UHGV virus genome: UHGV-0248979
Strand: one strand, 5' to 3'
DNA: 64,000 nucleotides
Origin: a virus
Shown here: positions 22,045 to 57,428 of the stretch, in pieces
Layout of the letters: every line of letters begins with the position of its first letter
How positions within the stretch are numbered: position 1 is the first letter of the stretch
Made by a program: the position numbers and the translations under genes
The notes under the pieces: generated by a model
What the model was told of the DNA's origin: nothing
The model's input: the letters and a program-made list of their open reading frames with translations, nothing else
Database searches by the model: none

Positions 22045-25000
22045 ATGGCTAAAAAAGGTAAAGATGATTTCGATGAAATCGATCTTGATAACATGGACGA
22101 CTGGGACGATTTTGATGAGCCCCCTCGTCAACAAGACCAATCGCGTAACCCGGTCATGGACACATTTCGTGCTGCCCGTAAGTCGGCGTTGTCGACTATC
22201 TGGCCCGAAAACAAACGTGATCAGGTTATTTTAAAAGGGATGCCCAAACCTGCGGCAGAAGCCTACGAAGGCTATCAAAACGTTAAAGCTGCAGGTCAAG
22301 ACATTCTGGCCCATACGAAAGACGAGATTGAAAAGACGTCTCGCGTCGTTAAGATGCAAGCGAGACAGTTAGGCCCAACACTGAAACGGTATTTACCGGA
22401 ATCCGTAACACGGAAAATCGACAAGTGGGCACGTAACGATCAAATCGACTATGGGAATTACGATCCTAAACAAGCGATGATGGATCGTGAGCTGGACAGC
22501 GTGTTCTCAGGTGCACCGCAAACAGCGGACCAGCAACGTGAAACGCAAGAAGGGATGGTTGAAGACCGCCTGCGTGACACGATTAAGGACATGAAGTCCG
22601 ACGCACTGTTCCAGACAGTAATCGGTATTGCAAAAGACGTCAACTTAACGACTAGCTTAAGTCGTGGCGTGTTGTTGAATGTTCAGCGTAAGCAGTTAGA
22701 GCTACAATATCGAACATTGTTTGCTTTGCAGGATATTGCGAAACTCAAACAAGACGAGTTTGCACGCAATACACCGGCATTAGAAGCTATCGTTAAGAAC
22801 ACAGCACTGCCAGACTACGCGAAGGAAGAGTTTTCTGAAGTTCGTTGGGCTAATGTAAAACGTAAAGCTGCGGAGTGGATGAACCCCTTACGCTACGCAG
22901 ATAATTTCGTTGATCAGATTCGTGAAAATGCGAAGAAGAAAATCTCGAACATCTTTAGTGACGGCCGTGGAATTCTAGAACAAGTTCTAGGGATGGCTCA
23001 GGAAGATGACTTTGGCATGTCGGACAGCTCATCGTTGTCCCCTGACCGTCGTAACACAAACTCGCGTAATAAAGCGGCAGGTTTTGCAGGTGGTTGGTTA
23101 GCAAAACGGTTCTTACAACCCCAGATCGAGCGTCTCCAAAACTGGACTCGTGGCGAGTTAGAGAAAAATCCAGAAGTAATGAAGCGGTTGGAAAAGCTGA
23201 ATTACATCGTTAGTAATAAATCGTCACTTTCTAACTCAGCTATTGCGGGGGAGTCGAGCGGATGGTTAGCTGACTTTTTCCGCCTGTTGAACGACGTGGG
23301 ATTGGTTAACCCGCTACGTCGCGAAACGTTAGCATTAGACGATCGCTCTGCGGAATCTCTTTCTGCGGCGGCGAAATTCGATCGTAAAGCTTACCTTAGT
23401 ATCACCGAAGTTATTCCGACGTTACTGTCCGAGATTAACAAATCTATCCGTCGTGGATATGGGGAACACCACGATCAGGTTTATGACCTGACCACACGCG
23501 GTATGGTGGATCGTAAAGTTATTGGTAATCGTGTTCGTAAAGCGGTTGCTAATGACGATCAGCGTAAACGTTTACAGACTTACATCAACGATACTGTTGA
23601 CTTTATCGATAAAGATAAAACGCTCGATCGGAAAACACGCCAAGCATTAGCGGACTACATCGAATCTCGTGCCTCAGAAGGGAAAGCGTTCGACGTAGGG
23701 TCTTTATTGAAAGACCCGATGCACATGTATCGGTACATGAACGCAAACGCTGTGGAAGCGATTCAGGGTGTTTTAGAAGCCCGTTCTGCGGAACTGGTTG
23801 GTGGACACCATGAACTGAGCAACGCGATTTCAAACAAAATCGCCGCTATCCAGTCAACGATTCGCGCACGTCAGGACACTGTTGATGCTGCGTCTGTGAT
23901 TTACGGCGAGAATGCACTTCGTGATTCCGGTATTTTTAAATACGATGCGAAGAAAGACATTTTCGAGGTCGATAAGGACATTAACGATCCCTATACGTTA
24001 TTTAATGACCTGTCGATGGGTAAGACCCGCTCTGGACGTTCGTTAACCCGTGAGCAAGAGATTCAGCGTAAATTGCAAAACGGTTCTGCGCTGGGTGATT
24101 ACTTGCGTCGGATGGGTGCAGGCGCAGAGCCGAGCTTTGAAGACAAAGAACTGTCCAATGTACGTGGCGGTGGAAAAGGAGGTCGTGGTCGCGGTTTAAG
24201 CGCACGCCAACTCGCTGCGGTACTTTATGGAGAGAAATCCACTAACTTTGTTGAACTATTAAGCAGTCGTCCAGACACGAACGCCGGGTTGGAGCATCAA
24301 TTCGACCGTTTGATTGATGCTGTACGTAAACAGCCCGAATCTAGCACAGTGCAAGATATCCTCAAACACGTTAAGAACATGGATGAGGAAGGTATTCTCC
24401 TAGCCAGTTTAGGCGGTAGTCGTGATGACGGTGACGAATCTGAAAGTTCGAGTGACTCGGGTCGTAAACGTCGTCGTAAACGCAAACGTATTGTGCTAGG
24501 CGAGACAGGCTTGTTACGCCGTTGGGCTGGAGTGCTTTGGGATACCGGTTCAGGTGTAGGGCGTTTTGGTAAGAATCTGTTCCTACGTGGGAAAGATCGT
24601 CTGCAGGCTTTAGGTGGTTTTATCCGTGGGAAATTCTCAGGCGGCTCCTCCGAAGGACCCGGTGTATTTAGCCGACTGAAAGGGTTAGTAACAGGTACTC
24701 TATCGACAGGTTGGAATTCTGCTGTAGCTTTCGGTAAAGGCGTTTTAGGTGTTCGTGATATTTACGATGAACGTGGCAACGTCGTATTACAAGGAAGTCG
24801 TTTAGAAGCTGGGGAATATTACCAGGCTGACCCGAAAACTGAGAAGCTGATTCAACTTAAAACCCTCGACGATATTAAACTGGGACGTGATATTGTCGAT
24901 GAAGCGGGTAATTTAATCTTAGCTGCTGCTGATTTGGCTGCCGCAGGTAAACTGCGCTTCTACAAAGGTGGTAAAGTTCAAGCGCTTTTCCAGTACATTT

Positions 25001-28000
25001 CTGGGAAAGCAGGAACGGCGGTAAACAAAGCTGTGACTTTACCGAAGAAACTTTTAGGCTTCATTTCACCTAAAGCGGCTTCGTTGTTCGAGAAAGCACG
25101 TGAGTGGCTAAATGAGGTTCCAGAGGGCGCAGAGAAAACCCGTTTACAAAGCATGATTTCCCGTGTAACTGGAATGCCAGCACGTTTGTGGAACAATGCA
25201 AAACGCGGGTTTGAGAAGCTCAAAGAGTTGGCTTCTGATAACCCTCTGACACGTTGGTGGCAGAACCGTAAGGAAGGGGGTTCTGGTGGTGGGTTTAGTG
25301 TGTTCTCATGGTCGAACGGCCGTAAAACTAACCACATCTTAATCCGTATCTACAAACTCCTTAACCGGAGATTGCCAGGTGAACCAGAAGATGATACCTG
25401 GACAGAACAGATGGAACGGAATACGGGAGCCAGCTCAGTTAAAGGATTATTCCAACGTGCTAAGGACATACGTGAAGGGTTCCGTGAACATTTTCGGGGG
25501 TTCCGGGATTGGCGTGGTCGGATGCGTGACAGAATGTCCCGTTATCGCAGTGCGGTAGGTGGTCGTCTTTCTCGTTGGGGCGGTGCCGCACGTGGTTGGT
25601 TTGATCGTTTCCGTGGCCGTGCAAGCGATATGGTCGATACTTTCCGAGACCCACGTTACGATATCGGCACACGTTATCGAATGGAGAGTCGTTTAGCAGG
25701 ACGCGATGACGATGTTGCTGAGTTTTATCGTCAACACATCTACGCAAGAGGCAAGGTGTCTAAAACACGTATCATCGATGCGGCAAAAGAAGACTTAGAC
25801 ACCGTAACGGATAGCGCTGGACGTGTGATTAATAAAGGGAAACAGAAAGCCCGTAGCGTTGGGTCAGCTTTACTGGAACGCCTGAACCGAATGGTTAATC
25901 TTCAGGAAATGTCATGGTTTAACACCATGCGTGATTCTGCGGAAAAAGCAGGTGCTTCGGAAGGTTTGTTAAGAACTATGTTCAGTAAGTTCGGCCAACG
26001 CAATAAGCCGCCTGCCAGTGATGAAAAACGCGATTACTTCCAGTTCTTCCGACGCCGTCGGCGTTCTAAGGAAGAGGAAAAGGCTAAGAAAGAGGCTGAG
26101 AAGAAAGGTGGTAAACGTGGGGTAATGGATTTCCTTAAAGGATTGCCGTTGGTAGGACCAATCGTGAGTATTTTAGGCACAGTGGGTTCAATCTTAGGTA
26201 AACTTGCAAAATGGGGAATCTTCAAGCCGGTTGGATTTGCAGGCAAAGCGTTGTGGAACGTTGGTAAGTTTGCCGTGACCCGTTTGGCTGTCCCTGCGGT
26301 TAGTGCTGTCGCGACAGCTGCATCTGCAGTGGTAACTGCGGTTGGCTGGCCGATTATCGGTTTGGTAGCCGCTGGCGCAGGGTTAACGTGGTTTTATTAT
26401 AAAACTAAAGATCGTGTAAATGCCCAGTATCTGGATAACATGCGATTGGCACAGTACGGTTTTAGAGACCACGATGAATGGTCTTCCGACGACGGTGCAA
26501 AAGCACGTTATTTAGAAGACAACTTGAAACCGTATATCTCTTATACAGAGAACGGTCAAGCGCAGCTGCGTGGTTTGTCCGGTGACGATGTGAAGAAACT
26601 GGCCGAAGGGTTTGGTACTAACGTAGAAGACAAAGGCGAAATGCTGGCGTTTAGTGCGTTTATGCTACAACGTTTTGTGCCGATCTATTTACGTTGGATT
26701 ACAGCGTTACGTTCAATGGATAACGATATCGCGTTAGCTGACGTCGGTAATCCGTCGAAGGTATCAAAAGCAGACATGCTTACCATCTTTAACAAAATGA
26801 AGATGACAAAAGATGCACCTGCTTTTAAATCGCTGACAGACCCCCGTAAAGTTAACCAAGGTTGGTTCTCTAAAGCGTGGGATTTCGTGACCTTCACACC
26901 GGCAGAATTTTTGTCAGGCGAAGAAGTTGTTGAGGCACAAGATCGTGTTTTCCGTTCGATCAACATGCGCCGCGATGATAAGCGTAAGAAAACAACTGGA
27001 GCCGGTGCTGTGCCTGAAGGACATAAGGTTGCTTCTGTGGCAGAATCTTCGCAGGTACTCGCGAAGAACGATACCGAACGTAACGAAACCGTTGCTAAAG
27101 CTGAGGGTTGGGAAGACGGTACTGAACAGGTTCAAATTCAAGTTGACTGGAGAGTATTACCTGAGAAGAAAGATTTGGACGCGATGGAATCCGTCCGTTG
27201 GAAATCTTACGGTGTGAAATCTGTTAATGAGACAACACGTACCCTCTTTAGGTTGCTTGAGAAAGAAGTGTTGAAAGACACGGATATCAAAAATTGCATT
27301 TATAAGGGTGATTGGAAGAAAGCAATTTCTGCGATTGCGCCTGATGCAATTGGCGGTCCAAAAGAGGAGCGTTACAAGAACTGGTTCTATAATCGATTCT
27401 TACCAGTATTCATGACCTACGTTTATGGTGTAAAACGTTACGTACCTCATGCCGATCCGTTGGATTTGAAACTCACGGGGGGTTTCCTCTATGAGCTGGC
27501 ACTGATGATGCGTGGTGCTTACAACATGAAAGGGGGTATCCGTCAGTCTGTGTGGGAAATCGCATTTAACCCGTTAGGAGGCGATGCGAATACTGACGCG
27601 GGTTCGGTGAAGGAAGAATTAGCAACGTTGAAAGAGTTGTCTAAAGAACCTGATCTGGCTGTAAGGAATATGCTCAAAGAAACACCGAGCACGCCTAAGC
27701 GTATGACATGGAAATCACCAGCGACAAACTCCAGTGTCCATCAGACGAATGAAGATAGCAAAGAGCGTTATAAGGGAATTAACAGCTACGGCGAAGCTTC
27801 AAACGACGGATACTTACCAAAAGGTGGTCAGTACGGTACGCCAGGTGACTTATCACAAGTTGTTGGCGATATGGGTATAGGGAACTATGCGAAGTATTCC
27901 ACTGGACAATCTGGTATCACCCTCGGTGAGTTACAAGACGGTGATTACAAATCGTTAGTGACTAAATACCCAAGGGAAATGCTTGGCAAACCGATGCAGT

Positions 28001-29208
28001 CAAATACCGAAGCCATTAAGTCATTGATTATTGACGCGGCAAACATGGTGGGTGTTCCGCCATCCGTTGCGATTGCAATGGCACAAGCAGAATCTGGCTT
28101 ACAGTATGGCAACTACCCTGGCGCATCCTCTGGTAGACCGAGAAGTAATAAGATGTCTGCCGCTGGACTGTTCCAATTTACCAATGGTACTTGGAACGGG
28201 GTTATGAAGCAGTACGCCCGAAGATACGGTATCCCACAAACCGACCAGTTCGACCCGTGGGCTAACGCAATCTTAGGTGTTAACTTCATTAGAGACAACA
28301 TCAAGACCGCACAAAAGGATCTGGGTGGAATTGCCCCACCTCCGGCAGTAGCGTACCTATACCACTTCTTAGGTCCAGGTGGTGGTGCTGAGTTCCTTAA
28401 AGCCTGGAAAACCAATCCTAACGGGTCGCCCGACAAAGTGAAGTATATTACACCTGCTGTTCTTAACGGCAACGAAGGTGTTTTCTATATCATGAACGGG
28501 AAGAAACGCGTTAGGATGCGTACGATCGGTGAGGTTGTCGAGGAACTGAACCGCCGTATGGGCGCGGTTGGAACTAACGAGATTGCGGCAAATCCTGCGT
28601 CTGCGAAAAACATGACAAAAGGGTTATCGCCAGTTCCATCGTCTCCTGCAATTGCTGCTGGCGCAGCTAACGATCCGTCTATTTCTGGTCCGGCAGATAA
28701 CCTGCCAGCCGCGAACGAGGCGAATCGTGACTCCGCTTTAGCAGACAAAGGAGCGATGGGCGCTGAAGATATTAAAGCTGCAACTGGGGGTGGTCCAGCT
28801 GTGCCGAGTCCTGGCGGTGACGTCACGCCAAGTGATGCGTCTGTCGTTGTTGAAACGGTGGGTCAAAATGCGCGTGCTGATGGCCTGGGCGAAGAGGAAG
28901 TTGCCAAAGTAAAAGAAGGTGCTAGACAGCAAATGGAGAAAACAGCTCGTCCTGCGCCAACGGTAACGTCTGATGCACAGACTGCGCCAACGGTGAACAG
29001 CGGTGATCCGATTAGCGTACAGCAGCTGGCGGTTGCAAAAGAGTCTGCGGGTTATCTGAGAGAGATTGTTACAATTCTTCGTCAGCGACCACAGGCTATG
29101 CAGTCCTCCCCAGCTAGTTCGGCGGCTTCTGCCCCGGGGTCAGCATCACGTAACATCGCGGTTGAACAACCTGCCCGCCAACTCGACGTTGGTCGTAAAC
29201 GGGCGTAA
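22045..29208 (+). CDS. giant virion-type protein with transmembrane cluster and C-terminal lytic transglycosylase (SLT) domain
   Basis: 2387-aa ORF; hydrophobic segment ...LPLVGPIVSILGTVGSILGKLAKWGIF...AVGWPIIGLVAAGAGLTWFYY; SLT-like ...AMAQAESGLQYGNY...AAGLFQFTNGTWNG... near C-terminus. Confidence 0.7.
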   Translation: MAKKGKDDFDEIDLDNMDDWDDFDEPPRQQDQSRNPVMDTFRAARKSALSTIWPENKRDQVILKGMPKPAAEAYEGYQNVKAAGQDILAHTKDEIEKTSRVVKMQARQLGPTLKRYLPESVTRKIDKWARNDQIDYGNYDPKQAMMDRELDSVFSGAPQTADQQRETQEGMVEDRLRDTIKDMKSDALFQTVIGIAKDVNLTTSLSRGVLLNVQRKQLELQYRTLFALQDIAKLKQDEFARNTPALEAIVKNTALPDYAKEEFSEVRWANVKRKAAEWMNPLRYADNFVDQIRENAKKKISNIFSDGRGILEQVLGMAQEDDFGMSDSSSLSPDRRNTNSRNKAAGFAGGWLAKRFLQPQIERLQNWTRGELEKNPEVMKRLEKLNYIVSNKSSLSNSAIAGESSGWLADFFRLLNDVGLVNPLRRETLALDDRSAESLSAAAKFDRKAYLSITEVIPTLLSEINKSIRRGYGEHHDQVYDLTTRGMVDRKVIGNRVRKAVANDDQRKRLQTYINDTVDFIDKDKTLDRKTRQALADYIESRASEGKAFDVGSLLKDPMHMYRYMNANAVEAIQGVLEARSAELVGGHHELSNAISNKIAAIQSTIRARQDTVDAASVIYGENALRDSGIFKYDAKKDIFEVDKDINDPYTLFNDLSMGKTRSGRSLTREQEIQRKLQNGSALGDYLRRMGAGAEPSFEDKELSNVRGGGKGGRGRGLSARQLAAVLYGEKSTNFVELLSSRPDTNAGLEHQFDRLIDAVRKQPESSTVQDILKHVKNMDEEGILLASLGGSRDDGDESESSSDSGRKRRRKRKRIVLGETGLLRRWAGVLWDTGSGVGRFGKNLFLRGKDRLQALGGFIRGKFSGGSSEGPGVFSRLKGLVTGTLSTGWNSAVAFGKGVLGVRDIYDERGNVVLQGSRLEAGEYYQADPKTEKLIQLKTLDDIKLGRDIVDEAGNLILAAADLAAAGKLRFYKGGKVQALFQYISGKAGTAVNKAVTLPKKLLGFISPKAASLFEKAREWLNEVPEGAEKTRLQSMISRVTGMPARLWNNAKRGFEKLKELASDNPLTRWWQNRKEGGSGGGFSVFSWSNGRKTNHILIRIYKLLNRRLPGEPEDDTWTEQMERNTGASSVKGLFQRAKDIREGFREHFRGFRDWRGRMRDRMSRYRSAVGGRLSRWGGAARGWFDRFRGRASDMVDTFRDPRYDIGTRYRMESRLAGRDDDVAEFYRQHIYARGKVSKTRIIDAAKEDLDTVTDSAGRVINKGKQKARSVGSALLERLNRMVNLQEMSWFNTMRDSAEKAGASEGLLRTMFSKFGQRNKPPASDEKRDYFQFFRRRRRSKEEEKAKKEAEKKGGKRGVMDFLKGLPLVGPIVSILGTVGSILGKLAKWGIFKPVGFAGKALWNVGKFAVTRLAVPAVSAVATAASAVVTAVGWPIIGLVAAGAGLTWFYYKTKDRVNAQYLDNMRLAQYGFRDHDEWSSDDGAKARYLEDNLKPYISYTENGQAQLRGLSGDDVKKLAEGFGTNVEDKGEMLAFSAFMLQRFVPIYLRWITALRSMDNDIALADVGNPSKVSKADMLTIFNKMKMTKDAPAFKSLTDPRKVNQGWFSKAWDFVTFTPAEFLSGEEVVEAQDRVFRSINMRRDDKRKKTTGAGAVPEGHKVASVAESSQVLAKNDTERNETVAKAEGWEDGTEQVQIQVDWRVLPEKKDLDAMESVRWKSYGVKSVNETTRTLFRLLEKEVLKDTDIKNCIYKGDWKKAISAIAPDAIGGPKEERYKNWFYNRFLPVFMTYVYGVKRYVPHADPLDLKLTGGFLYELALMMRGAYNMKGGIRQSVWEIAFNPLGGDANTDAGSVKEELATLKELSKEPDLAVRNMLKETPSTPKRMTWKSPATNSSVHQTNEDSKERYKGINSYGEASNDGYLPKGGQYGTPGDLSQVVGDMGIGNYAKYSTGQSGITLGELQDGDYKSLVTKYPREMLGKPMQSNTEAIKSLIIDAANMVGVPPSVAIAMAQAESGLQYGNYPGASSGRPRSNKMSAAGLFQFTNGTWNGVMKQYARRYGIPQTDQFDPWANAILGVNFIRDNIKTAQKDLGGIAPPPAVAYLYHFLGPGGGAEFLKAWKTNPNGSPDKVKYITPAVLNGNEGVFYIMNGKKRVRMRTIGEVVEELNRRMGAVGTNEIAANPASAKNMTKGLSPVPSSPAIAAGAANDPSISGPADNLPAANEANRDSALADKGAMGAEDIKAATGGGPAVPSPGGDVTPSDASVVVETVGQNARADGLGEEEVAKVKEGARQQMEKTARPAPTVTSDAQTAPTVNSGDPISVQQLAVAKESAGYLREIVTILRQRPQAMQSSPASSAASAPGSASRNIAVEQPARQLDVGRKRA

Positions 29209-47180: not shown

Positions 47181-48080
47181 TTATTTCCCACGATAAAATC
47201 CAGAGATGTAGCTTGGCGCTATCCATCGCCATTCGCGCCAACGCATTTCTGACATTTTACCACACCATACACGCTTCCAATGAGCACGACGGATATGTGC
47301 TGCGCAATAAATCGCCAAACAAACCTCGTGTCCCTCCTTGCGTTGTTGTTCTATATCTTCCCATTGTACCGGACTTACGTCTAAAACGACCGCTTCACTA
47401 CGTGGGCGAATCTCTGTATCAGGAACATAACGAATGGTCCTCCCGCGAAATTCTTTCTTCTCACGTTCAGTTCGTTTAATTCGCGATGAAAGATATAGTC
47501 CGATATAGACGGCGTCGAGTAGTCGTTGATTCTCCTTAACCGAAGTAAGGAGCGGCTTTAACTCCACGAAATCATCATTACTTTTATCGATCGTGTAAAT
47601 CTCAAACTCCATGTATACCGACTCGTCATGTTCTTCGCATGACATCACAAAGAGAACTTCTTCACCTTCGTAAAGACGTCTTCCGATAAATAACGTGATT
47701 GGACATTCGTCGAGATTTACGGTAACCGAGAAAGTAAATGAAGGGATGGTTTCTATCCAGAAGTACGGGATATTTTTTAGTCTCTCAGTTTTTGCTAAGA
47801 GCGCCATCAGTTCTTCATCCGAGATGATTTCAACAGCAGCGTATTGCCATCCTAGTCCCAGGGACTGCTTAATCAGTCTGGGAATCTGTTCGGTAACGCC
47901 ATATTCACGATAGGTCGGATCTTTAACTGGCATAAACGTTACGGGTATTTGTCGTTTATGCTCGTTAATGAACCGAATAAAACGGCACTGATCTAATCCG
48001 TGAATTGTTTGGTGTGCTTTTTCTATCTGTTCGCTCATGCGTCTTAGCGCTTTCCCGTAAAGTCTATTATTCGTTGTCAT
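47181..48080 (-). CDS. hypothetical protein, about 300 aa, with C-terminal His/Arg/Trp-rich motif (paralog A)
   Basis: Start moved to ATG at 48080 with AGGAG SD; C-terminal ...CAAHIRRAHWKRVWCGK...RWIAPSYISGFY. Confidence 0.55.
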   Translation of the reverse strand: MTTNNRLYGKALRRMSEQIEKAHQTIHGLDQCRFIRFINEHKRQIPVTFMPVKDPTYREYGVTEQIPRLIKQSLGLGWQYAAVEIISDEELMALLAKTERLKNIPYFWIETIPSFTFSVTVNLDECPITLFIGRRLYEGEEVLFVMSCEEHDESVYMEFEIYTIDKSNDDFVELKPLLTSVKENQRLLDAVYIGLYLSSRIKRTEREKKEFRGRTIRYVPDTEIRPRSEAVVLDVSPVQWEDIEQQRKEGHEVCLAIYCAAHIRRAHWKRVWCGKMSEMRWREWRWIAPSYISGFYRGK

Positions 48081-48105
48081 TTTAATGCTCCTAAACACTT
48101 TTAGC

Positions 48106-49032
48106 TTAATTGTGGGGTACGTAGCCACGGACAAATGTAGGTGGAATCCAACAAAGTTTTCTTTTTCTTTCCCCATCTCTTGGACCGACCCAATATCTGC
48201 GCCAGTGCGCGCGACGAATATGTGCGGCCTTGGCGTGTTTGATACCTTCCATGGTTTTCAAGTCGGTGTTAAATCCCTTTAGATATTTCACTTGTTCTGG
48301 TGTGATGTCTATTTTAACGTCACGTTCACGAGGTTTGATTTCGTGACTTATGCTACCATTCTTTTTGATTTCTTTGAACTTAATGTCATTGAAAGACCCT
48401 CTGAGATTGGGCGGGATTAGCGTACAGAGAAATATCAACGATATGGCGGTTTTGGCCAGTGATAACCATAACGTCTTCTCTTGTTCGGTCTGTACGCCAG
48501 TTGTATAATCGATTTCAACAAGCCCGTTTCCAACACTACATATCTCTAACGAGCAGGTGGCGATTGTGGTAACGCCTTCTGTTAACCCGTAATCAGTATT
48601 TGTAGCAATTATAATAAACCTTCTATTCCCATTTTTTCGATAACCGAGAAAGAAAGTCTCATCTTCTTTACCTACATCGATTGCTACAGTCCAAGTAGGT
48701 ATAAAGTCTAACCACTCTTCAGGGAATTTACTGGGCATCTCAGTCTCGAAAACAAGTTCTCTAAGTGCTCGATCGGATATTAAGGAAGCACCACCGTATA
48801 GCCATCCAATTGCCAATGTTTGAGCGTGAAGAGAACGGGGATCTTTGAGACCTAACTCAGCGTCGTAGGGTATAAAGGCATTAGTTAAATGCTTACGATT
48901 CTTTTTTATCCATTTCGAGACGGGATTTTCTTTTGTTTGATTTTCTTCCATGACATTTTCTAGATGCTGACTCCCCATTTGTCTAAGGCAGTCTTTAACA
49001 CCTTTTACTTTTTTACTTTTGTACAAATACAC
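48106..49032 (-). CDS. hypothetical protein, 308 aa, with C-terminal His/Arg/Trp-rich motif (paralog B)
   Basis: GTG start with AGGAG SD; C-terminal ...AAHIRRAHWRRYWVGP...LCWIPPTFVRGY. Confidence 0.55.
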   Translation of the reverse strand: MYLYKSKKVKGVKDCLRQMGSQHLENVMEENQTKENPVSKWIKKNRKHLTNAFIPYDAELGLKDPRSLHAQTLAIGWLYGGASLISDRALRELVFETEMPSKFPEEWLDFIPTWTVAIDVGKEDETFFLGYRKNGNRRFIIIATNTDYGLTEGVTTIATCSLEICSVGNGLVEIDYTTGVQTEQEKTLWLSLAKTAISLIFLCTLIPPNLRGSFNDIKFKEIKKNGSISHEIKPRERDVKIDITPEQVKYLKGFNTDLKTMEGIKHAKAAHIRRAHWRRYWVGPRDGERKRKLCWIPPTFVRGYVPHN

Positions 49033-50108: not shown

Positions 50109-50651
50109 TTATACTCCTTTAGGTTGTCCGTATTTTGACGATAGGTAGATGAGTTCAGCATGGCAGATTTTCTCAACTAACCCGAGTGTCTCAAGGAAAA
50201 TATCCCGGATACGGGACATCGTTTCGTTGGTAAGAATATCGCTCCAACATGTTGTGTCTATTATATCCGTCGTTGAAGATTGGCGCTGCAATATTGCGAC
50301 ATACACTTCGTCGAGGCTATCTGGTGCATTATTCTGTAAGTAATGGGCGGCATGTAGAAAGGCTTTCTCAAGAATCAGCTGAATATCCGTATCGGGATCA
50401 GTTACCCGTACTAAATGCGGGTATGTCATAGCCGAACTGATTTTTATCACTAACTGCTCAACGAGGTTATTCACCATCGCTTCTGAATCCAGGATAGTAA
50501 TATCAGCTCCATCGTGTTCTTCAGAAATCTTATTCTCATGCACTGCTATCGCATCGTGTAATTCAAACGCAACGCGACTTCGCATCTCACTTAACACTTT
50601 GTTTAATTTGTCCCGTGACTCGCTGAGTGAGAAATCGATAAGTATTTTCAT
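50109..50651 (-). CDS. hypothetical protein, 180 aa
   Basis: Start overlaps stop of upstream gene. Confidence 0.5.
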   Translation of the reverse strand: MKILIDFSLSESRDKLNKVLSEMRSRVAFELHDAIAVHENKISEEHDGADITILDSEAMVNNLVEQLVIKISSAMTYPHLVRVTDPDTDIQLILEKAFLHAAHYLQNNAPDSLDEVYVAILQRQSSTTDIIDTTCWSDILTNETMSRIRDIFLETLGLVEKICHAELIYLSSKYGQPKGV

Positions 50652-51394
50652 TATACGTACTCCTGATAAATTGGCCGACCCCGATCTTCTCGAATCTGGC
50701 AGTATGTTACAACAATACCGTTAGGGATTTGTGCGCCGCTGTCTTCAAGGTAAATAACGCCCGTAGCTTCACAGAGATAAAACGACCACAATCGTGAGAT
50801 ACCAAGCCGTGCGTTCTCGTAGTGACTGAATGGCCAGAAACCACAGTGAATCTCATCATAGTCTCCCCGTTCTATCCCGTAAGCAATCATTTCTTTTTCC
50901 CACAACGTACATTCAGCGTCGTAAGTCGAAAACCAGAAACCAACGAGATTCTTTGTCCGCTTAACGTTCATTAAGTCGTTATAAATGGGAAAGAGTGCTT
51001 TATTGAAATTTTCTAACATCTCTGGAGAGAATAGAAAATTCATGTAGTATTCTAGCCATTGATAAACGGCTTCCCAGACATCTTCAGAAGAGAAATGTTC
51101 GAATACGGCGTCATCGCAATCGTAGTTATCGAAGATCCCTGAGAGATCTATTTCGACGACGCCGCGAAGGTCAAAGTTTCTGTTGGTATTGACAGCGTCA
51201 ATAACCTCAGCGATGAGACGAGTAAAGACGATTGTGCAGGCGGTTTGTGCGGTATAAAAGAATTCTCCTTGTACGGTTGACCACTTCGGGTCCTTCAAAT
51301 GTTCATTGAAGTATTGTGGCCAAATTTTATAAAAGATTCCCTCGAACAACGAGGGATTGATACGTTGTAATTGAGGGACATAAACTTTTAGCAT
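50651..51394 (-). CDS. hypothetical protein, 247 aa
   Basis: ORF with GGAG SD. Confidence 0.5.
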   Translation of the reverse strand: MLKVYVPQLQRINPSLFEGIFYKIWPQYFNEHLKDPKWSTVQGEFFYTAQTACTIVFTRLIAEVIDAVNTNRNFDLRGVVEIDLSGIFDNYDCDDAVFEHFSSEDVWEAVYQWLEYYMNFLFSPEMLENFNKALFPIYNDLMNVKRTKNLVGFWFSTYDAECTLWEKEMIAYGIERGDYDEIHCGFWPFSHYENARLGISRLWSFYLCEATGVIYLEDSGAQIPNGIVVTYCQIREDRGRPIYQEYV

Positions 51395-51430: not shown

Positions 51431-52099
51431 CTATCTAAGAATATTTTTAATGAAAAAAGGATCGGCTGTAAACTCCTTCACTTGTGAGTCATAACCCGAA
51501 TGTATTTGATCGCTACTGAGCAAATACTGGTCTAGGTCGTGCGGAAGAATCCAAGAATCACCTTGCTTAAAAATACCATAATCTGCTGTTCCTGCGGAAA
51601 AAATGATTTCCTCTGGAAACGAATAGACACGGCGTAAGGCAAGATCGGATGGCTTTAACACGATTAATCGAACGGGATGTTGACTGACTGCCTCTTTAAT
51701 AAACTGTTCACGATTAAACCAAATTATTTTTTCGGGGTAAGTTTCGAATTCAGCCCATGCCCGCGTGATAACTAATTTGGAAATCTTTCTCAATTCTTCA
51801 GAACGCTCTGCGTAGCCGATGCACTCCTTGCGTACTTCATGATTTTCTATCGATGTTGTGAATTTTTGGAATAGGTGTTGTTGGAAAAAGCCGTTCTCCG
51901 GGATATCACAACCCGCGTTGTATAGTGCAATGATCTCCCACAACAACGAAAGAGAAAACACAAATGCTAACTTTTCCACAACTTCCCAATCTTCGGAGTA
52001 AGGGGCTTTAAAGCCCCAATACTGCCGTGCGTTATACATAAAGTGAGTTTGTAAAAACCGAGGGGCTTTTGACAAGACCTCACTATAAACGATCAGCAT
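51431..52099 (-). CDS. hypothetical protein, 222 aa
   Basis: ORF overlapping the RNase H gene end by 7 nt. Confidence 0.5.
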   Translation of the reverse strand: MLIVYSEVLSKAPRFLQTHFMYNARQYWGFKAPYSEDWEVVEKLAFVFSLSLLWEIIALYNAGCDIPENGFFQQHLFQKFTTSIENHEVRKECIGYAERSEELRKISKLVITRAWAEFETYPEKIIWFNREQFIKEAVSQHPVRLIVLKPSDLALRRVYSFPEEIIFSAGTADYGIFKQGDSWILPHDLDQYLLSSDQIHSGYDSQVKEFTADPFFIKNILR

Positions 52100-53613
52100 T
52101 CAAGCTCCTTATCCGTCAATATTCGTTTGTTTGAATAATAGCCGCACCACAAACCATGATATTTTTCCCCGATATAAACCAACGCGTATTCGATATACTG
52201 CCGTTCTGGACGACGTACAGCCACGTAAAACCGCCCTTCCGGTTCTTTGATACGGTTGATTTCCGTACGCGTCGGTATGTCGATACCTCGAGTAAGGATA
52301 GCTTTAACCTTGTTTTTACTACCAGGGATCTTGATGGTTACGTCAAAACCTTTATCTACGTTACGATAAATGTCTTTCTTCGGCTTACCTTTCTCATCGT
52401 AAAGTACGTCAGTAATGTCATTCAACACTACTGAGTTTTTCCCTTCCATGGCATCGCGTAACCAACCTGCAAGCTCATCACGAATCGCAATACAACGATA
52501 AGATAATAGCGCAGGACGAAGAATTCGTGTAATCGAAAGATCTTCAAACATCCACAGGTTTTTGTCTTCACTAAAATGCATCCGATCGATAGGAATGCCG
52601 TTAGCAGCGGCTTCTGCGAACTTCTTGCGCTTTACGAATAAGTTAAAAACAACGGCGATTGGATCAAATTGACGTAAACGGGGCACCCCTTCCCACGCTT
52701 TCGCAGAATGGGTATTTACCAACTCGTATACGTTATCCCACGGTTCTTTGGTAAACATTACGCAGAATTGTGCATCTGGAATGTACTTACCAACGAAGAC
52801 GATATCATCCTTCTGTTTTGCGTGGTTTCCACCGAACATGTAATAAAGTTTATTACCGTTAACTGTAACAGTGGGGTGAGGCTCGTTCACCATCGGGTAA
52901 CAGAACTTCGTAACACAGATATCGGGAAAAGTGGACAAATTGACACCCTCACCAACAACTTCCGGTTGCTGTTCTTCCTCAGGCAGTTCGTCTTTTGACC
53001 AATACGGTGTATAGTCTAACCCCTCCCCTCGGGCAGAGATAATTGAGCCTTTCCGCGCTAACTCGTCTGCGCGTTCGTTTCCATAACGTCCAGAGTGGCC
53101 TTTAATTTTAAGGACACGAACACCTTTCCCTTCTTTCTTTAAGCGCTGTTTAACCACCCACATCCGTTGGATTAATTCCAGATTCGCAATAGGTGTACCG
53201 TCCGCACGACGCCAACCACGTGCTGCCCAACCATCAATCCAGTCGTTATACGTGTTGACAACGTAAGATGCGTCGATATAGATAACGTAGTTTTTGGCAA
53301 CGAAGGGGGCGTGTTCGAAGACGGTCAGGAAAGCCACGAGTTCTGCAACGTCGGAGTGTGACATTTTTGGTACAGGAACAACTCCGTCAATAAACTCCAC
53401 GGTTTCTGGTAAAGGCGGAAGTTTTTCATCTTTGTTTATCTGGCGGTATCCTGACGTCGTAATCCCCTCGGGAATAGTGGGATGGCGGTAAACCCGACCA
53501 TCCTCAATCGCTTCACGATTAAATAAGTATCCATGAATCCCCGCCCCTGTACCGAGCGGGGAAGTCAAATGGCTACCGTCCGTGTAAATTACTGCAACAT
53601 CAACGTTCTTCAT
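52093..53613 (-). CDS. RNase HI domain protein fused to a ~330-aa C-terminal region of unknown function
   Basis: N-terminal ...VAVIYTDGS...IDASYVVNTYNDWIDGWAARGW...KIKGHSGRYGNERADELARKG matches RNase HI catalytic motifs. Confidence 0.7.
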   Translation of the reverse strand: MKNVDVAVIYTDGSHLTSPLGTGAGIHGYLFNREAIEDGRVYRHPTIPEGITTSGYRQINKDEKLPPLPETVEFIDGVVPVPKMSHSDVAELVAFLTVFEHAPFVAKNYVIYIDASYVVNTYNDWIDGWAARGWRRADGTPIANLELIQRMWVVKQRLKKEGKGVRVLKIKGHSGRYGNERADELARKGSIISARGEGLDYTPYWSKDELPEEEQQPEVVGEGVNLSTFPDICVTKFCYPMVNEPHPTVTVNGNKLYYMFGGNHAKQKDDIVFVGKYIPDAQFCVMFTKEPWDNVYELVNTHSAKAWEGVPRLRQFDPIAVVFNLFVKRKKFAEAAANGIPIDRMHFSEDKNLWMFEDLSITRILRPALLSYRCIAIRDELAGWLRDAMEGKNSVVLNDITDVLYDEKGKPKKDIYRNVDKGFDVTIKIPGSKNKVKAILTRGIDIPTRTEINRIKEPEGRFYVAVRRPERQYIEYALVYIGEKYHGLWCGYYSNKRILTDKELEC

Positions 53614-53615
53614 TC

Positions 53616-54350
53616 TTAATCCCTGGTTAATTGATCACGAATCTGCGGCGCAACATACTCGCCAGTTTTCAGTTCTTCGTGACAGGCTTTGGCGCGTTCA
53701 AACCCGTATTGGCGGGTGACCAAAGCGAGGTGATAAATACGTGCCGTGGTGTAGGCTTCTTTTGCTGCATCCCACATTGCGTGGTGCTCAAAAGCGGGCT
53801 TACCGCGTGTCCAATAAACTTGCTCTACCGTTAAGTCGGGTTCGAAACCAAACGCAAAAGCTAAACGCTCTGCGGTACGATCGCTATCCAACGCACTAAA
53901 TTTACGGAACTTCCCTGGCGGAATATCGCATTGTGCGAAAGCGTTTATGAAAATCGGCGCATCGAAGTCGGGACCGCGCATGGTAATAACAAACTCATGT
54001 TTTGCGGTGATCTCCCCGAGCCATTTTTGCATCGCCCACAGAGCATCAGGCAATGCTGTTGTTCCACCCCATGCTTCCGCATAGGCTTCACGAGACGGCG
54101 CGTATTCAGGTTCGCCTTTACCTTCCCACCATCCAACCGTTTGTGGGTCTTCGTGGAAAATAGCTTTTGCTTTAGGGTCATTAGGATCGATACGGATGTA
54201 TGAGGAACCAACCATTTTCAAGGTAGGGACGTCAAACGCCACTAAACCTGCACTCAACAGATAAGCGTCGGGACGTAACGATTTGGTTTCTGCATCGGCA
54301 CCAATAACCAACGTCGGTGTGTACGGGGTGATAATTTTTGGGTAGGTCAT
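53616..54350 (-). CDS. DEDDh-type 3'-5' exonuclease-like protein
   Basis: ...LVIGADAETKSL... (Exo I-like D-x-E) and ...FEHHAMWDAAKEAY... (Exo III-like H-x4-D). Confidence 0.5.
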   Translation of the reverse strand: MTYPKIITPYTPTLVIGADAETKSLRPDAYLLSAGLVAFDVPTLKMVGSSYIRIDPNDPKAKAIFHEDPQTVGWWEGKGEPEYAPSREAYAEAWGGTTALPDALWAMQKWLGEITAKHEFVITMRGPDFDAPIFINAFAQCDIPPGKFRKFSALDSDRTAERLAFAFGFEPDLTVEQVYWTRGKPAFEHHAMWDAAKEAYTTARIYHLALVTRQYGFERAKACHEELKTGEYVAPQIRDQLTRD

Positions 54351-54405
54351 GTTGAATTCTCCTGTTAGTCTACATTAAAATAGTCGTAAACGTTAAAAAG
54401 AAAGG

Positions 54406-54435
54406 CCCTCCTGTACCTCGAAGGGTACAGGAGGG
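54406..54435 (-). terminator. intrinsic terminator hairpin
   Basis: ccctcctgtacc / tcgaa / gggtacaggaggg; A-rich on + side upstream gives T-run on minus strand. Confidence 0.6.
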
Positions 54436-54439
54436 AGTG

Positions 54440-54898
54440 TCAGTACAAACACGATGTCAAGTATTGGTTATACGAATCGAGCAGTGCCTGACGGTCGGAA
54501 CGGTAATTCCACAACAAATTATTGAGTTTACGCGATAAATCACGGCTAATCTCCTGGGCCGTTAAAGAGCTCTCATCAAGAAACATGCGCTCAGGTACAA
54601 CGTGTAATTTCGGTAACTCATAGCGTTCACAAAGTGGAGCCAACATTGGTGGACTCCAGCCACGTTTAGCGGCTTGCTGGTTTAAATTTCGTGTGTAGAC
54701 ATAAACGTAATAAGCATAGGTGTTGACATCTGCAACATACTCACGCATTGCATTCTTGTCAATTTTCCAATTCACCATTATTGGCGGTTCAGGAGGAAGT
54801 TCCAGTGGTCTATAAGCTGGACGTTTAACTTCGTCACCGTAGCTATTACTCACCAACCCCACGAACACTACCATGATGAATAATAGCATTTTCATCAA
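54440..54898 (-). CDS. secreted/periplasmic hypothetical protein, 152 aa
   Basis: N-terminal MMKMLLFIMVVFVGLVSNSYG looks like a signal peptide; no lipobox Cys. Confidence 0.5.
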   Translation of the reverse strand: MMKMLLFIMVVFVGLVSNSYGDEVKRPAYRPLELPPEPPIMVNWKIDKNAMREYVADVNTYAYYVYVYTRNLNQQAAKRGWSPPMLAPLCERYELPKLHVVPERMFLDESSLTAQEISRDLSRKLNNLLWNYRSDRQALLDSYNQYLTSCLY

Positions 54899-55402
54899 TC
54901 ACTCCTTAGAAGACGATAGCGTCTTTATGATCTCCTGTCGAAAACTGTTCGCGTTTAAATTACCAACAGGTCTCGCCGAAGCCTCTTTACGTTGTTCTGG
55001 TGTTGAAGCCGGATTAACAGGAGTTTCTGGTTTTGCCGAGGACAGATCCTTCGTCGTACCGCTCGCTTTCGATGAATTAAACGTGCTTTCATATGGCGGT
55101 TTCTGGCCGAGGCAAACGAAGAGTCTGTCGTATAACTTATCATTATCTTCTTTTAGTTTATCTCGATCTTGTTTCATCTCTTGGTAAGACTGTGACATAT
55201 AAGTGTCATGAGACTGCACTGCAACGAGCGCGTGAAACTGTTGTACATAGGCGTAGGAGACGAAGCCAGAATACGACAACAAGATCGTGATGATTAAAGT
55301 CATTATCTTGCTTGCTCTTGATACGTTTTCTCCTTCTCCTGGTTTAAATGCTTCCATTAACATCTGAAGGAAGAACGGAAGCACTTTAAAAAATGAACCC
55401 AT
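54899..55402 (-). CDS. membrane-anchored hypothetical protein, 167 aa
   Basis: Hydrophobic segment IMTLIITILLSYSGFVSYAYV followed by a charged, probably helical region; contiguous with next gene. Confidence 0.5.
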   Translation of the reverse strand: MGSFFKVLPFFLQMLMEAFKPGEGENVSRASKIMTLIITILLSYSGFVSYAYVQQFHALVAVQSHDTYMSQSYQEMKQDRDKLKEDNDKLYDRLFVCLGQKPPYESTFNSSKASGTTKDLSSAKPETPVNPASTPEQRKEASARPVGNLNANSFRQEIIKTLSSSKE

Positions 55403-55427: not shown

Positions 55428-56801
55428 ATGTTAGACTTACAAGGTTTTATTCAGATACCGGCACTGTTTGACAATCAGGACGGCGTCACCGCTCCGGTGG
55501 GCGAGCTGTCGGATTTGACACTCTCGTACGCGAAGAGTAAACAGACGTTTACCAAAACCAATTTGCAAGTTCAATTGGTGACTTTTACGTCTAAACGAGA
55601 AAAACAGACGGTTGTTGTACCAGCCGAATTTTCTGATCATATTCTAACCGTTTCTCAATGGATATACCAGCAAGCCATCTTGGGGAATCTGAGAAATGAC
55701 GAACTTGAATTCCAGCGCCTGTTACTAGGACAATTCCAATCAACCATTTCTGGCGTTCAGTCCGGTGCGATGATTCAGACGAACAGTAATTGGTTCCCAC
55801 GCTGGGTGAGCTGGAAATATGAAGCAACAGCAGATCAAGTACAAGATGACACTGATGTAGATAATCAGATCATTGTTTGGTTCTCGGATGAAGACTTCGA
55901 TCAAGATTACACAGGGTTCGAAATCGAAGTGCAGATGCCGATTTCACCAATCGACACATTTTTGTCGACCAAGTCAGTCGTTGAAAAGGCGATGGAAGGG
56001 TTTAACCTTACCGAACACCATAAGAAAATCAATGAGTTAATGGCAGGATTTCCTTACACCGCTATCCAAACCAACTACTATACTTGGCACGATAAAGAAA
56101 ACTACGAGTCCACCCTAGTTGTCCCAATGTCGGTTATTATTTACGGCCGCGCGGGAAAAAACCCAACGAAAATAAAGCAAGCATTGCGAGAACATATTCT
56201 TGCCAATTCTAGCTTTACTGTCCCCGTCGGGGTAAAGGTATTTCCTGAAATTTTCACTACCACGAAATTTACAATTGTTCCTGGATGGAAAATTCGTGGA
56301 ATACCTAATGAGGAAGACGTAGCGGCGCTTTATTCCCCTATCCTTCCATATGATTTCTGGGTCAAAGCTATCAGTCGGTTTGGAGAATGGGCAGACCTGA
56401 CGGTAGCGGAAAGAAATACTAAAACGATCAGTAAGCCTACGACAGATGTAACTGACTTACCAACCGTTTATAAATCATTAAACTGTGTTGTAATCAGTGG
56501 GCCGGAAAATGATACGCGGAAAGCGACCTTACACGAAACTATCCCGGATTATGCGTTAATTGCGACGACTAACCCTGATATTGCACGTATGTCGAAAACA
56601 ACGACCGAATGGTTGGCGTTATTCTTCCAGGCACTTATTGCTGCGGAAGAATACCACCCGTATCAAACCAGCTTAGACATTGTAAAACTGGTCGATGAGG
56701 CAGACCCTGATAACTATTTCTGGGTATTTGAGTACGATAATGTGGAATATCGAATCCTGTCTCGGAAAGCGAAATGGTACAGCGAGTTAGACAAGGAGTA
56801 A
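55428..56801 (+). CDS. hypothetical protein, 457 aa
   Basis: + strand ORF. Confidence 0.55.
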   Translation: MLDLQGFIQIPALFDNQDGVTAPVGELSDLTLSYAKSKQTFTKTNLQVQLVTFTSKREKQTVVVPAEFSDHILTVSQWIYQQAILGNLRNDELEFQRLLLGQFQSTISGVQSGAMIQTNSNWFPRWVSWKYEATADQVQDDTDVDNQIIVWFSDEDFDQDYTGFEIEVQMPISPIDTFLSTKSVVEKAMEGFNLTEHHKKINELMAGFPYTAIQTNYYTWHDKENYESTLVVPMSVIIYGRAGKNPTKIKQALREHILANSSFTVPVGVKVFPEIFTTTKFTIVPGWKIRGIPNEEDVAALYSPILPYDFWVKAISRFGEWADLTVAERNTKTISKPTTDVTDLPTVYKSLNCVVISGPENDTRKATLHETIPDYALIATTNPDIARMSKTTTEWLALFFQALIAAEEYHPYQTSLDIVKLVDEADPDNYFWVFEYDNVEYRILSRKAKWYSELDKE

Positions 56802-56804
56802 TGA

Positions 56805-57428
56805 ATGGCTACGCGTTTACCACTACAGGTACCAGTCAACACCACGGGTCTGTTTAAAGTAAAAACACCATTTACTTTAGCCGAGACAGTCATTTATACG
56901 GTAGAGGCATCGCGTACCTTCCCAGATTTAGTACGTCAGAATATCGACGTTTATAATTCGTATTACCAGCCAGCAGGGCTAGGGCGTGAAGAATATTTAG
57001 CAGATGCGAATGTTAGTGCGTCGATTTTGACATTTAAATCTCGTGATGGTCAAGTTGTATACATACCTGACACCTACCTGGAATCGTACCCAGGTTTATC
57101 CGGGATCACGTATCAACGAAATGTGTTAGTGGTAGATTTGGCACTAGTACCGGATTACGTGAAAGTGTCGTCTATAACAAAAGACGTTTCAGATATTCTC
57201 ACGCATACTCTGGGGATTGAACCGAAAGTTGAAATTACAACTCTCGAGTATGAGGGGAAGGTAACGGAGGAACAACACTTGCAGATGGAAGCGGCACGAA
57301 AAAATAAAATTCGTGAGTCTATTCCGTTGGGCGAGAAAGTTGCTGCGTTGACAGAAGAAAACAAAAAATTAAAAGAGTTAAACAACCAAATGTTAGAGAT
57401 TCTTAAAGCTAACGGGTTAGTTAACTAA
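56805..57428 (+). CDS. hypothetical protein, 207 aa, C-terminal coiled-coil-like region
   Basis: ORF 3 nt after previous gene; ends at a terminator. Confidence 0.5.
   Translation: MATRLPLQVPVNTTGLFKVKTPFTLAETVIYTVEASRTFPDLVRQNIDVYNSYYQPAGLGREEYLADANVSASILTFKSRDGQVVYIPDTYLESYPGLSGITYQRNVLVVDLALVPDYVKVSSITKDVSDILTHTLGIEPKVEITTLEYEGKVTEEQHLQMEAARKNKIRESIPLGEKVAALTEENKKLKELNNQMLEILKANGLVN

What the first reader, a model, noticed from the sequence alone, without database searches (positions are those of the whole stretch)
52093..54350. DEDDh exonuclease followed by an RNase HI domain fused to a large uncharacterised C-terminal region
Seen: 53616-54350 has DnaQ-like Exo I and Exo III motifs (IGADAETKSL, HHAMWDAAKEAY). 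52093-53613 begins with a complete RNase HI signature (YTDGS ... KGHSGRYGNERADELA) and continues for about 330 residues with no recognisable motif. Established: RNase HI removes RNA primers, and DEDDh exonucleases proofread or degrade oligonucleotides. Inference: a primer-removal/repair pair, or nucleases that degrade host or signalling nucleic acids. The C-terminal extension may target the RNase H to a partner.
Basis: partly seen in the sequence, partly recalled or inferred. Interest (0 to 1): 0.5.

Follow-up and report, generated by a model that had tools for sequence, protein, structure and literature searches.

The report
Phage RNase H–clamp polymerase subunit plus exonuclease
The long gene is this jumbo phage's copy of Rhc, a recently described protein in which an RNase H is tethered to a sliding-clamp-like domain that helps the phage DNA polymerase, and the gene just before it encodes an intact 3'-5' exonuclease that only this branch of phages places there.

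Summary
Both ORFs exist exactly as described, on the minus strand: 53616-54350 (244 aa) and 52093-53613 (506 aa). The 244-aa protein is an Rv2179c-like DEDDh 3'-5' exonuclease with all catalytic residues conserved. The 506-aa protein has an intact RNase HI domain (D12/E91/D114/H173/D183), a disordered acidic linker and a well-folded C-terminal domain of about 280 aa. That domain has no sequence-family match. Its model's best matches in three structure libraries are DNA sliding clamps (9-1-1, PCNA, gp45, beta clamp, herpesvirus processivity factors), with weak scores. The whole protein is a full-length homologue of phiKZ gp155/Nlp2 and Goslar gp190 (hhalign probability 100%). Two October 2026 preprints name this protein Rhc (RNase H-clamp) and describe it as the third, processivity-conferring subunit of the split B-family DNA polymerase of nucleus-forming phages. 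The "uncharacterised C-terminal region" is therefore already explained, and this is a new orthologue in an SPN3US/Asesino-like phage. What remains unexplained is the exonuclease. It is translationally coupled to Rhc in every relative down to about 29% identity, but absent next to Rhc in phiKZ and Goslar, the two experimental models. Its substrate and any link to the replisome are unknown.

The parts
53616..54350 (-). Gene for a 244-aa DEDDh 3'-5' exonuclease of the Rv2179c-like family (stop codon included)
   Evidence: ORF. Pfam PF16473 E 3.9e-11. phrog_255 E 8e-44. D19/E21/D130/H189/D194 conserved in 24 homologues, plus an invariant S156-D157-R158-T159 motif. Weak profile match to RNase T, E 0.11.
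52093..53613 (-). Gene for the 506-aa Rhc (RNase H-clamp) orthologue (stop codon included)
   Evidence: ORF. phrog_3265 full length E 2.8e-168. hhalign probability 100% against phiKZ gp155 (E 7.7e-45, 454 columns) and against Goslar gp190 (E 1.3e-48, 467 columns).
53029..53613 (-). RNase HI domain (residues 1-195), with an insertion of about 30-40 residues between strands 2 and 3 relative to E. coli RNase HI
   Evidence: Pfam RNase_H covers residues 81-190. PDB RNase HI / human RNase H1 hits at E about 1e-11. Active-site residues align with E. coli in the three-way alignment, which also shows the insertion and a retained basic-protrusion segment. pLDDT above 90.
52939..53028 (-). Flexible acidic linker (residues 196-225)
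   Evidence: pLDDT below 50 at residues 209-219. Mean column conservation 0.33 and net charge -8.
52096..52938 (-). Sliding-clamp-like C-terminal domain (residues 226-506)
54406..54435 (-). Terminator-like hairpin (12-bp stem, 8 GC pairs, T-rich tail) that separates the upstream small gene from the exonuclease-Rhc unit
54359..54363 (-). AGGAG ribosome-binding site 8 nt upstream of the exonuclease ATG
   Evidence: Sequence read.
53611..53618 (-). Junction: exonuclease TAA stop, 2 nt, then the Rhc ATG. This layout suggests translational coupling.
   Evidence: Sequence read. The same abutting or overlapping junction occurs in loci L006-L009 and L012.

Best explanation
The 506-aa protein is the orthologue of Rhc (phiKZ gp155/Nlp2, Goslar gp190) in an undescribed SPN3US/Asesino-like nucleus-forming jumbo phage. 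Its C-terminal domain is a diverged, monomeric sliding-clamp-derived module. By homology, it docks on the C-terminal subunit of the phage's split B-family DNA polymerase and, together with the polymerase thumb, holds the emerging duplex. This supplies processivity in a replisome that has no ring clamp or clamp loader. The catalytically intact RNase HI domain hangs on a flexible acidic linker, where it can remove RNA paired to template DNA (primers, R-loops). Shown here: the domain architecture, the conserved active site, the clamp-like fold, full-length homology to the characterised proteins, and the conserved genome context. Inferred from the literature: polymerase binding, processivity and nuclear localisation. 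The 244-aa protein immediately upstream is an active-looking DEDDh 3'-5' exonuclease. It is transcribed and probably translated together with Rhc. The most likely reading, which is inferred and held with low confidence, is that it works on the same nucleic-acid intermediates, for example by trimming 3' ends or clearing RNase H products. The confidence figure applies to the Rhc identification and mechanism; for the exonuclease's link to the replisome it is only about 0.3.
For: Architecture and catalytic residues. Model confidence and disordered linker. Clamp-like fold from three independent libraries. Homology to phiKZ gp155 (BLASTP E 2e-31; hhalign probability 100%) and to Goslar gp190. The clamp-like domain alone retrieves 139 phage records; every one listed is 200-310 kb, and they include Goslar, PhiPA3 and phiKZ-like phages. 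The window keeps the phiKZ core gene order of Rhc, UvsX-like recombinase and small RNAP beta subunit, and also carries virion RNAP subunits (compared). Literature: PMC13648687 (Rhc has an RNase H domain plus a clamp-related domain, binds the DNAP-N/DNAP-C complex and dsDNA, and boosts primer extension); PMC13648698 (Goslar Rhc is essential, binds DNAP-C, and has replication and transcription roles); PMC12571901 (phiKZ155 is a core gene, essential, nuclear, and a bona fide RNase H in vitro); PMC7824862 (this phage group lacks a classical clamp and primase, yet all members have RNase H1). Exonuclease coupling.
Confidence: 0.85

Rival explanations
1. The exonuclease is functionally independent of Rhc. 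It would be a cytoplasmic nuclease that degrades host or phage RNA/DNA oligonucleotides for nucleotide salvage or turnover. Its position in front of Rhc would only reflect shared middle-gene timing.
For: RAY gp64, also PF16473 (E 1.2e-13), is diffuse in the cytoplasm in infected cells (10.1101/2023.02.24.529968). The exonuclease is missing next to Rhc in phiKZ, KEN51, Goslar and the most divergent metagenomic relatives, so Rhc does not need it. Pfam names the family an exoribonuclease family. Thymidylate synthase and other nucleotide-metabolism genes occur in the same genomic region in the window and in relatives.
Against: RAY gp64 is only a distant relative (hhalign probability 16%). The stop-start abutment with Rhc is maintained across relatives from 97% down to about 29% Rhc identity, and gene order places the two genes side by side in a Vibrio phage as well. 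That is tighter than mere co-timing requires.
Confidence: 0.45
2. One reading: a generic primer-removal pair, in which RNase HI is simply targeted to a partner by an otherwise inert extension and an oligonucleotide-degrading exonuclease works alongside it.
For: Both active sites are intact. This phage group lacks an identified primase but always has RNase H1 (PMC7824862). Goslar needs the RNase H catalytic activity (PMC13648698).
Against: The extension is a conserved folded domain with 20 conserved basic positions and a clamp-like fold. In phiKZ a catalytically dead D102N mutant still complements, so the essential role does not depend on RNase H catalysis (PMC12571901). The C-terminal domain itself boosts polymerase activity through the observed interface (PMC13648687).
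Confidence: 0.1
3. The C-terminal domain is mainly a nuclear-import or shell-docking module that binds Imp1/PicA, not a DNA or polymerase-binding clamp derivative.
For: Import of Nlp2/gp155 depends on specific Imp1 surfaces (10.1101/2024.03.27.586873). GFP-gp155 forms a punctum at the nuclear periphery, similar to PicA (PMC12571901).
Against: All nuclear cargo needs import, so this does not explain a 280-residue domain with a conserved basic surface. The fold searches point to clamps. Cryo-EM places the domain on the polymerase and dsDNA (PMC13648687). The two roles are not mutually exclusive.
Confidence: 0.05
4. Annotation artefact: the C-terminal region is a separate gene joined to the RNase H by a sequencing frameshift.
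For: None found.
Against: It is a single uninterrupted ORF. The same 470-550-aa architecture occurs in 55 aligned homologues and in 173 phage records that cover at least 80% of the query. The full-length model is confident across both halves. phiKZ gp155 has been expressed and studied as one protein (PMC12571901).
Confidence: 0.01

Closest known systems
Rhc (RNase H-clamp) of Chimalliviridae: phiKZ gp155/Nlp2 and Goslar gp190
   Same: Full-length homology (hhalign probability 100% to both). The architecture is the same: RNase HI domain, flexible linker, clamp-like domain. The conserved catalytic Asp matches the one mutated in phiKZ (D102 = D114 here). The genome block is the same: DUF7194 gene, virion protein gene, small genes, Rhc, then UvsX-like recombinase and small RNAP beta subunit.
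   Different: Only 24-25% identical to the two studied proteins. In this clade Rhc is preceded by a translationally coupled DEDDh exonuclease that phiKZ and Goslar lack. Polymerase binding and processivity have not been tested for this clade.
Erwinia phage Asesino gp226 and SPN3US-group 'putative ribonuclease H' (phrog_3265)
   Same: Closest cultured relatives: 67% and 64% identity over the full length, with an identical exonuclease-Rhc gene pair and flanking genes.
   Different: Database records annotate them only as ribonuclease H, and annotate the neighbour as 'endodeoxyribonuclease', which the DEDDh motifs do not support. There is no near-identical DNA in the phage collection. A protein cluster from public metagenome assemblies is 97% identical (P0001).
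Monomeric or dimeric viral processivity factors with the clamp fold (herpesvirus UL42, UL44, PF-8, BMRF1)
   Different: No detectable sequence relationship. Those proteins have no fused nuclease. The resemblance is in fold and mode of action, not family membership.
E. coli RNase HI / human RNase H1 catalytic domain (PF00075)
   Same: The DEDD-plus-His active site and the basic-protrusion segment are conserved.
   Different: It carries an extra insertion of about 30-40 residues between strands 2 and 3, and it is fused to a domain of about 280 residues. It scores below NCBIfam's equivalog cut-offs.
Rv2179c-like DEDDh 3'-5' exoribonucleases (PF16473); RNase T / DnaQ epsilon superfamily
   Same: Exo I (DxE), Exo II (D) and Exo III (H-x4-D) are all present and conserved. 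The Pfam score is above the gathering threshold (43.4 against 27 bits).
   Different: No solved close relative: the best PDB profile match is RNase T at E 0.11. The protein has its own invariant SDRT motif and a conserved C-terminal tail. Its substrate is unknown.

Membership tests
Rhc (RNase H-clamp) of nucleus-forming phages | N-terminal RNase HI domain with a complete active site | tested here: met
   Pfam E 2.4e-20. D12/E91/D114/H173/D183 are conserved and align to E. coli D10/E48/D70/H124/D134.
Rhc (RNase H-clamp) of nucleus-forming phages | [quoted passage not shown] | tested here: met
Rhc (RNase H-clamp) of nucleus-forming phages | Flexible linker between the two domains | tested here: met
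   pLDDT below 50 at residues 209-219. Full-length pTM is 0.57 against 0.83 for the C-terminal domain alone. The linker is poorly conserved and acidic.
Rhc (RNase H-clamp) of nucleus-forming phages | Full-length homology to the characterised proteins | tested here: met
   hhalign probability 100% to phiKZ gp155 and to Goslar gp190. That these two genes are the published 'Rhc' is inferred, because only the abstracts are held.
Rhc (RNase H-clamp) of nucleus-forming phages | Encoded in a chimallivirus genome | tested here: inconclusive
   The window has virion RNAP subunits, a UvsX-like recombinase, a small RNAP beta subunit and the phiKZ gene order. Its nearest relatives are Erskinevirus and Seoulvirus phages. 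The chimallin gene itself was not looked for and is not evident in the window.
Rhc (RNase H-clamp) of nucleus-forming phages | Binds the DNAP-C/DNAP-N polymerase and stimulates primer extension | not testable with these tools
   This needs biochemistry or complex prediction. No polymerase subunit lies in the window.
Canonical ring sliding clamps (PCNA, beta clamp, gp45) | Sequence-family membership | tested here: not met
   No Pfam, NCBIfam or PDB-sequence match for the C-terminal domain.
Canonical ring sliding clamps (PCNA, beta clamp, gp45) | Closed ring oligomer loaded by a clamp loader | not testable with these tools
   The literature reports a single Rhc subunit on the polymerase (PMC13648687) and no classical clamp system in this phage group (PMC7824862).
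DEDDh (DnaQ-like) 3'-5' exonucleases, Rv2179c-like family PF16473 | Exo I DxE, Exo II D and Exo III H-x4-D motifs | tested here: met
   D19, E21 and D130 are at least 90% conserved; H189 and D194 are invariant in 24 sequences. The Pfam score is above the cut-off.
DEDDh (DnaQ-like) 3'-5' exonucleases, Rv2179c-like family PF16473 | 3'-5' exonuclease activity and substrate preference (RNA or DNA) | not testable with these tools
   This needs an enzyme assay.

The most novel reading that the evidence does not exclude
In the SPN3US/Erwinia/Cronobacter/Vibrio branch of nucleus-forming phages, the DEDDh exonuclease is a fourth, lineage-specific component of the Rhc-DNAP replisome. It would be made in fixed proportion with Rhc through translational coupling and recruited by the clamp-derived domain or the polymerase. 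Its job would be to proofread or trim 3' ends, or to clear RNase H products. This would parallel the way the DEDDh epsilon subunit rides on the beta clamp and Pol III in bacteria.
Probability: 0.25. Interest if true: 0.55.

Novelty: new member of a known kind. Interest (0 to 1): 0.3.

Why it matters
Nucleus-forming jumbo phages were long thought to lack a sliding clamp. Rhc has just been proposed as the missing processivity factor. This window shows that the same RNase H-clamp architecture, with an intact active site and a conserved basic clamp-like domain, holds in a divergent enterobacterial-type lineage only about 25% identical to the studied proteins. That supports Rhc as a family-wide core replisome part. 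The practical gains are corrected annotation ('ribonuclease H' should become Rhc, and 'endodeoxyribonuclease' should become DEDDh 3'-5' exonuclease) and one concrete open question: why does one large branch of these phages hard-wire an exonuclease to Rhc expression when phiKZ and Goslar do not?

Tried and rejected
- Megablast of the locus against the phage collection found nothing, so the phage itself is not in that collection.
- Profiles of the C-terminal domain against PDB sequences, and the domain against Pfam and NCBIfam, found nothing. Only fold comparison was informative.
- The AFDB50 fold library was unavailable.
- I considered testing whether the split polymerase of this clade has lost its own proofreading motifs, which would favour a trans-proofreader role for the exonuclease. 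phiKZ gp82 gives no Pfam match at all and no polymerase subunit is in the window, so I dropped the test.
- The SPN3US essential-gene paper says nothing about either gene.
- RAY gp64 was checked as a possible localised orthologue of the exonuclease. It is in the same Pfam family but only distantly related, so its cytoplasmic localisation is weak evidence.
- The frameshift/separate-gene idea was rejected.
- An anti-signalling (cyclic-oligonucleotide) nuclease role for either protein was considered. Nothing was found to support it, but it was not tested directly.
Full report
**Observation.** All four quoted motifs are present. The 244-aa protein matches the Pfam Rv2179c-like 3'-5' exoribonuclease domain (PF16473, E 3.9e-11, above threshold) and phrog_255 'exonuclease' (E 8e-44). 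The 506-aa protein matches Pfam RNase_H over residues 81-190 (E 2.4e-20) and phrog_3265 'ribonuclease' end to end (E 2.8e-168). The full-length PHROG match shows that the long architecture is itself an established phage family.

**Phage identity and context.** There is no near-identical DNA in the phage collection. At protein level the closest cultured relatives are Erwinia phage Asesino (67%), SPN3US-group Salmonella phages (64%) and Erwinia phage Huxley (56%). phiKZ-like phages match at 25% over 97% of the length. A metagenome-derived protein cluster is 97% identical. The window also encodes a tail sheath, two large virion-RNAP-type beta subunits, a small RNAP beta subunit, a UvsX-like recombinase and thymidylate synthase. 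The order Rhc, UvsX-like recombinase, small RNAP beta subunit mirrors phiKZ gp155-gp152-gp149 and Goslar gp190-gp193-gp196. This is a nucleus-forming-type jumbo phage of the SPN3US/Asesino lineage.

**The RNase H domain.** In an alignment of 56 homologues, E91, D114, H173 and D183 are invariant and D12 is at least 90% conserved. A three-way alignment with phiKZ gp155 and E. coli RNase HI places these residues on D10, E48, D70, H124 and D134. It also shows that the basic-protrusion segment is retained, and that Rhc has an extra 30-40 residues between strands 2 and 3. PDB RNase HI and human RNase H1 match at E about 1e-11. The domain looks catalytically competent.

**The C-terminal region.** This region is not a loose tail. 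It has its own invariant and near-invariant positions (W205, G262, H264, K276, D280, L370, R373, D399, T401 and others). Its mean conservation equals that of the nuclease domain (0.58 against 0.56). It has 20 positions that are K/R in at least 80% of sequences. AlphaFold2 on the family alignment gives mean pLDDT 90.9, with one disordered stretch at residues 209-219 and pTM 0.57, which indicates two rigid bodies on a flexible acidic linker. Modelled alone, residues 196-506 give pTM 0.83. Sequence methods find nothing for this domain.

**Identification with Rhc.** The window protein aligns over its full length with phiKZ gp155 (BLASTP E 2e-31; hhalign probability 100%, E 7.7e-45, 454 columns). 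It aligns equally well with Goslar gp190 (probability 100%, E 1.3e-48, 467 columns). The clamp-like domain alone retrieves 139 phage records. Every one listed is a jumbo phage of 200-310 kb, and they include Goslar, PhiPA3, PCH45, RSF1 and phiKZ-like phages.

The literature on this protein is as follows:
[quoted passage not shown] It is a bona fide RNase H in vitro, but the D102N mutant still complements. D102 corresponds to D114 here (PMC12571901).
- Its import depends on Imp1/PicA (10.1101/2024.03.27.586873).
- Two preprints from October 2026 name it Rhc (RNase H-clamp). In phiKZ, a single Rhc subunit with a sliding-clamp-related C-terminal domain binds the DNAP-N/DNAP-C split B-family polymerase and the emerging duplex, and strongly boosts primer extension (PMC13648687). 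In Goslar, Rhc is an essential third polymerase subunit that contacts DNAP-C. Both the nuclease activity and the clamp-derived domain are required there, and it has a separable role in late transcription, probably R-loop removal (PMC13648698).
- An earlier comparative study had noted that this phage group lacks a classical clamp and primase yet always has RNase H1 (PMC7824862).

Only the abstracts of the two preprints are held, and they give no gene numbers. Equating Rhc with gp155/gp190 is therefore an inference from the unique architecture and the matching knockdown phenotype, though a strong one. My fold result was obtained before I found these papers, and it agrees with them.

**The exonuclease.** In 24 homologues, D19 and E21 (Exo I) and D130 in 'GPDFD' (Exo II) are at least 90% conserved. 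H189 and D194 (Exo III, H-x4-D) are invariant, which makes this a DEDDh enzyme. There is an additional invariant S156-D157-R158-T159 motif. One outlier homologue has lost the DxE motif. The nearest solved relative by profile is RNase T, at an insignificant E of 0.11. Database records call this protein 'putative endodeoxyribonuclease', which the motifs do not support.

Its distribution is narrower than that of Rhc: 65 phage records, all in the SPN3US, Erwinia, Cronobacter or Proteus group or a few Vibrio phages. Its position is strikingly fixed:
- In the window, its TAA stop is followed after 2 nt by the Rhc ATG.
- It lies immediately upstream of Rhc in Asesino, SPFM19 and Huxley.
- It does so again in five metagenomic contigs whose Rhc is 49% to 29% identical to the window protein, where stop and start abut or overlap.
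- A Vibrio phage shows the same adjacency by coordinates.
- In relatives at about 25% identity (two metagenomic contigs, phiKZ, KEN51, Goslar), the surrounding block is intact (DUF7194 gene, virion-protein gene, small genes, Rhc), but the exonuclease is absent.

A 12-bp-stem terminator-like hairpin (54435-54406, minus strand) lies just upstream, followed by an AGGAG site. This suggests the exonuclease opens a transcription unit. At its downstream end, the Rhc stop overlaps the start of the next gene.

**Mechanism.** For Rhc, I commit to the published model, transferred by homology. The clamp-derived domain docks on the polymerase and grips the product duplex. The tethered RNase HI clears RNA from template DNA. 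The conserved basic positions and the flexible linker seen here fit that model.

For the exonuclease, the evidence supports only three things: it is an active-looking 3'-5' exonuclease, it is co-expressed with Rhc, and it is lineage-specific. Whether it acts at the fork or independently in the cytoplasm is open. The tight coupling favours a fork role. Against that, a distant same-family protein in phage RAY is cytoplasmic, and the two model phages do without an exonuclease next to Rhc. I rate the two readings as roughly comparable, with independence slightly ahead.

**Verdict.** The locus is a new orthologue of a known and very recently characterised system, so the overall interest is modest. 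The only unexplained element is the conserved exonuclease-Rhc coupling in this lineage.

Noticed in passing
window 47181-48176 (-) and 48106-49032 (-): Two adjacent genes both match phrog_6160 (unknown function; E 2.6e-19 and 4.3e-38), so they are tandem paralogues. As listed, the ORFs overlap by 71 nt, so the listed start of the downstream gene (47181-48176) may lie too far upstream.
   Followed up: partly
window 22045-29208 (+): A giant 2387-aa ORF next to the virion-RNAP-type subunit genes. It was not examined.
   Followed up: no
window 51338-51356 (-): A second terminator-like hairpin (7-bp stem, T-rich tail) lies about 40 nt inside the ORF 50651-51394, whose PHROG match starts at residue 1. 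It could be an internal attenuator or a chance match.
   Followed up: no
window 53616-54350 (-) and relatives in public records: Public phage records consistently annotate this DEDDh 3'-5' exonuclease as 'putative endodeoxyribonuclease' and annotate Rhc as plain 'ribonuclease H'. Both labels are misleading.
   Followed up: yes
BFVD entry I1VX43: A 233-aa viral protein matches the clamp-like domain alone (E 1.4e-9, 224 columns). It may be a stand-alone or split version of the Rhc C-terminal domain, or a truncated annotation.
   Followed up: no
P0076 in alignment A2: One exonuclease homologue has lost the Exo I DxE motif (GCVAKTKS in place of GADAETKS) and has other substitutions. It may be an inactivated copy or a sequencing error.
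   Followed up: no
literature: phiKZ gp155 and Goslar Rhc: The published results disagree on whether RNase H catalysis is needed. The phiKZ D102N mutant complements (PMC12571901), whereas Goslar requires catalytic activity (PMC13648698). The window protein keeps the full active site, so it cannot settle the question.
   Followed up: partly
window 54440-55402 (-), 55428-56801 (+), 56805-57428 (+): The block of two small genes, a virion structural protein (phrog_3293) and a DUF7194 protein upstream of Rhc is conserved from this phage to Goslar, and probably to phiKZ. That is unusually stable synteny for a phage group known for genome rearrangements.
   Followed up: partly
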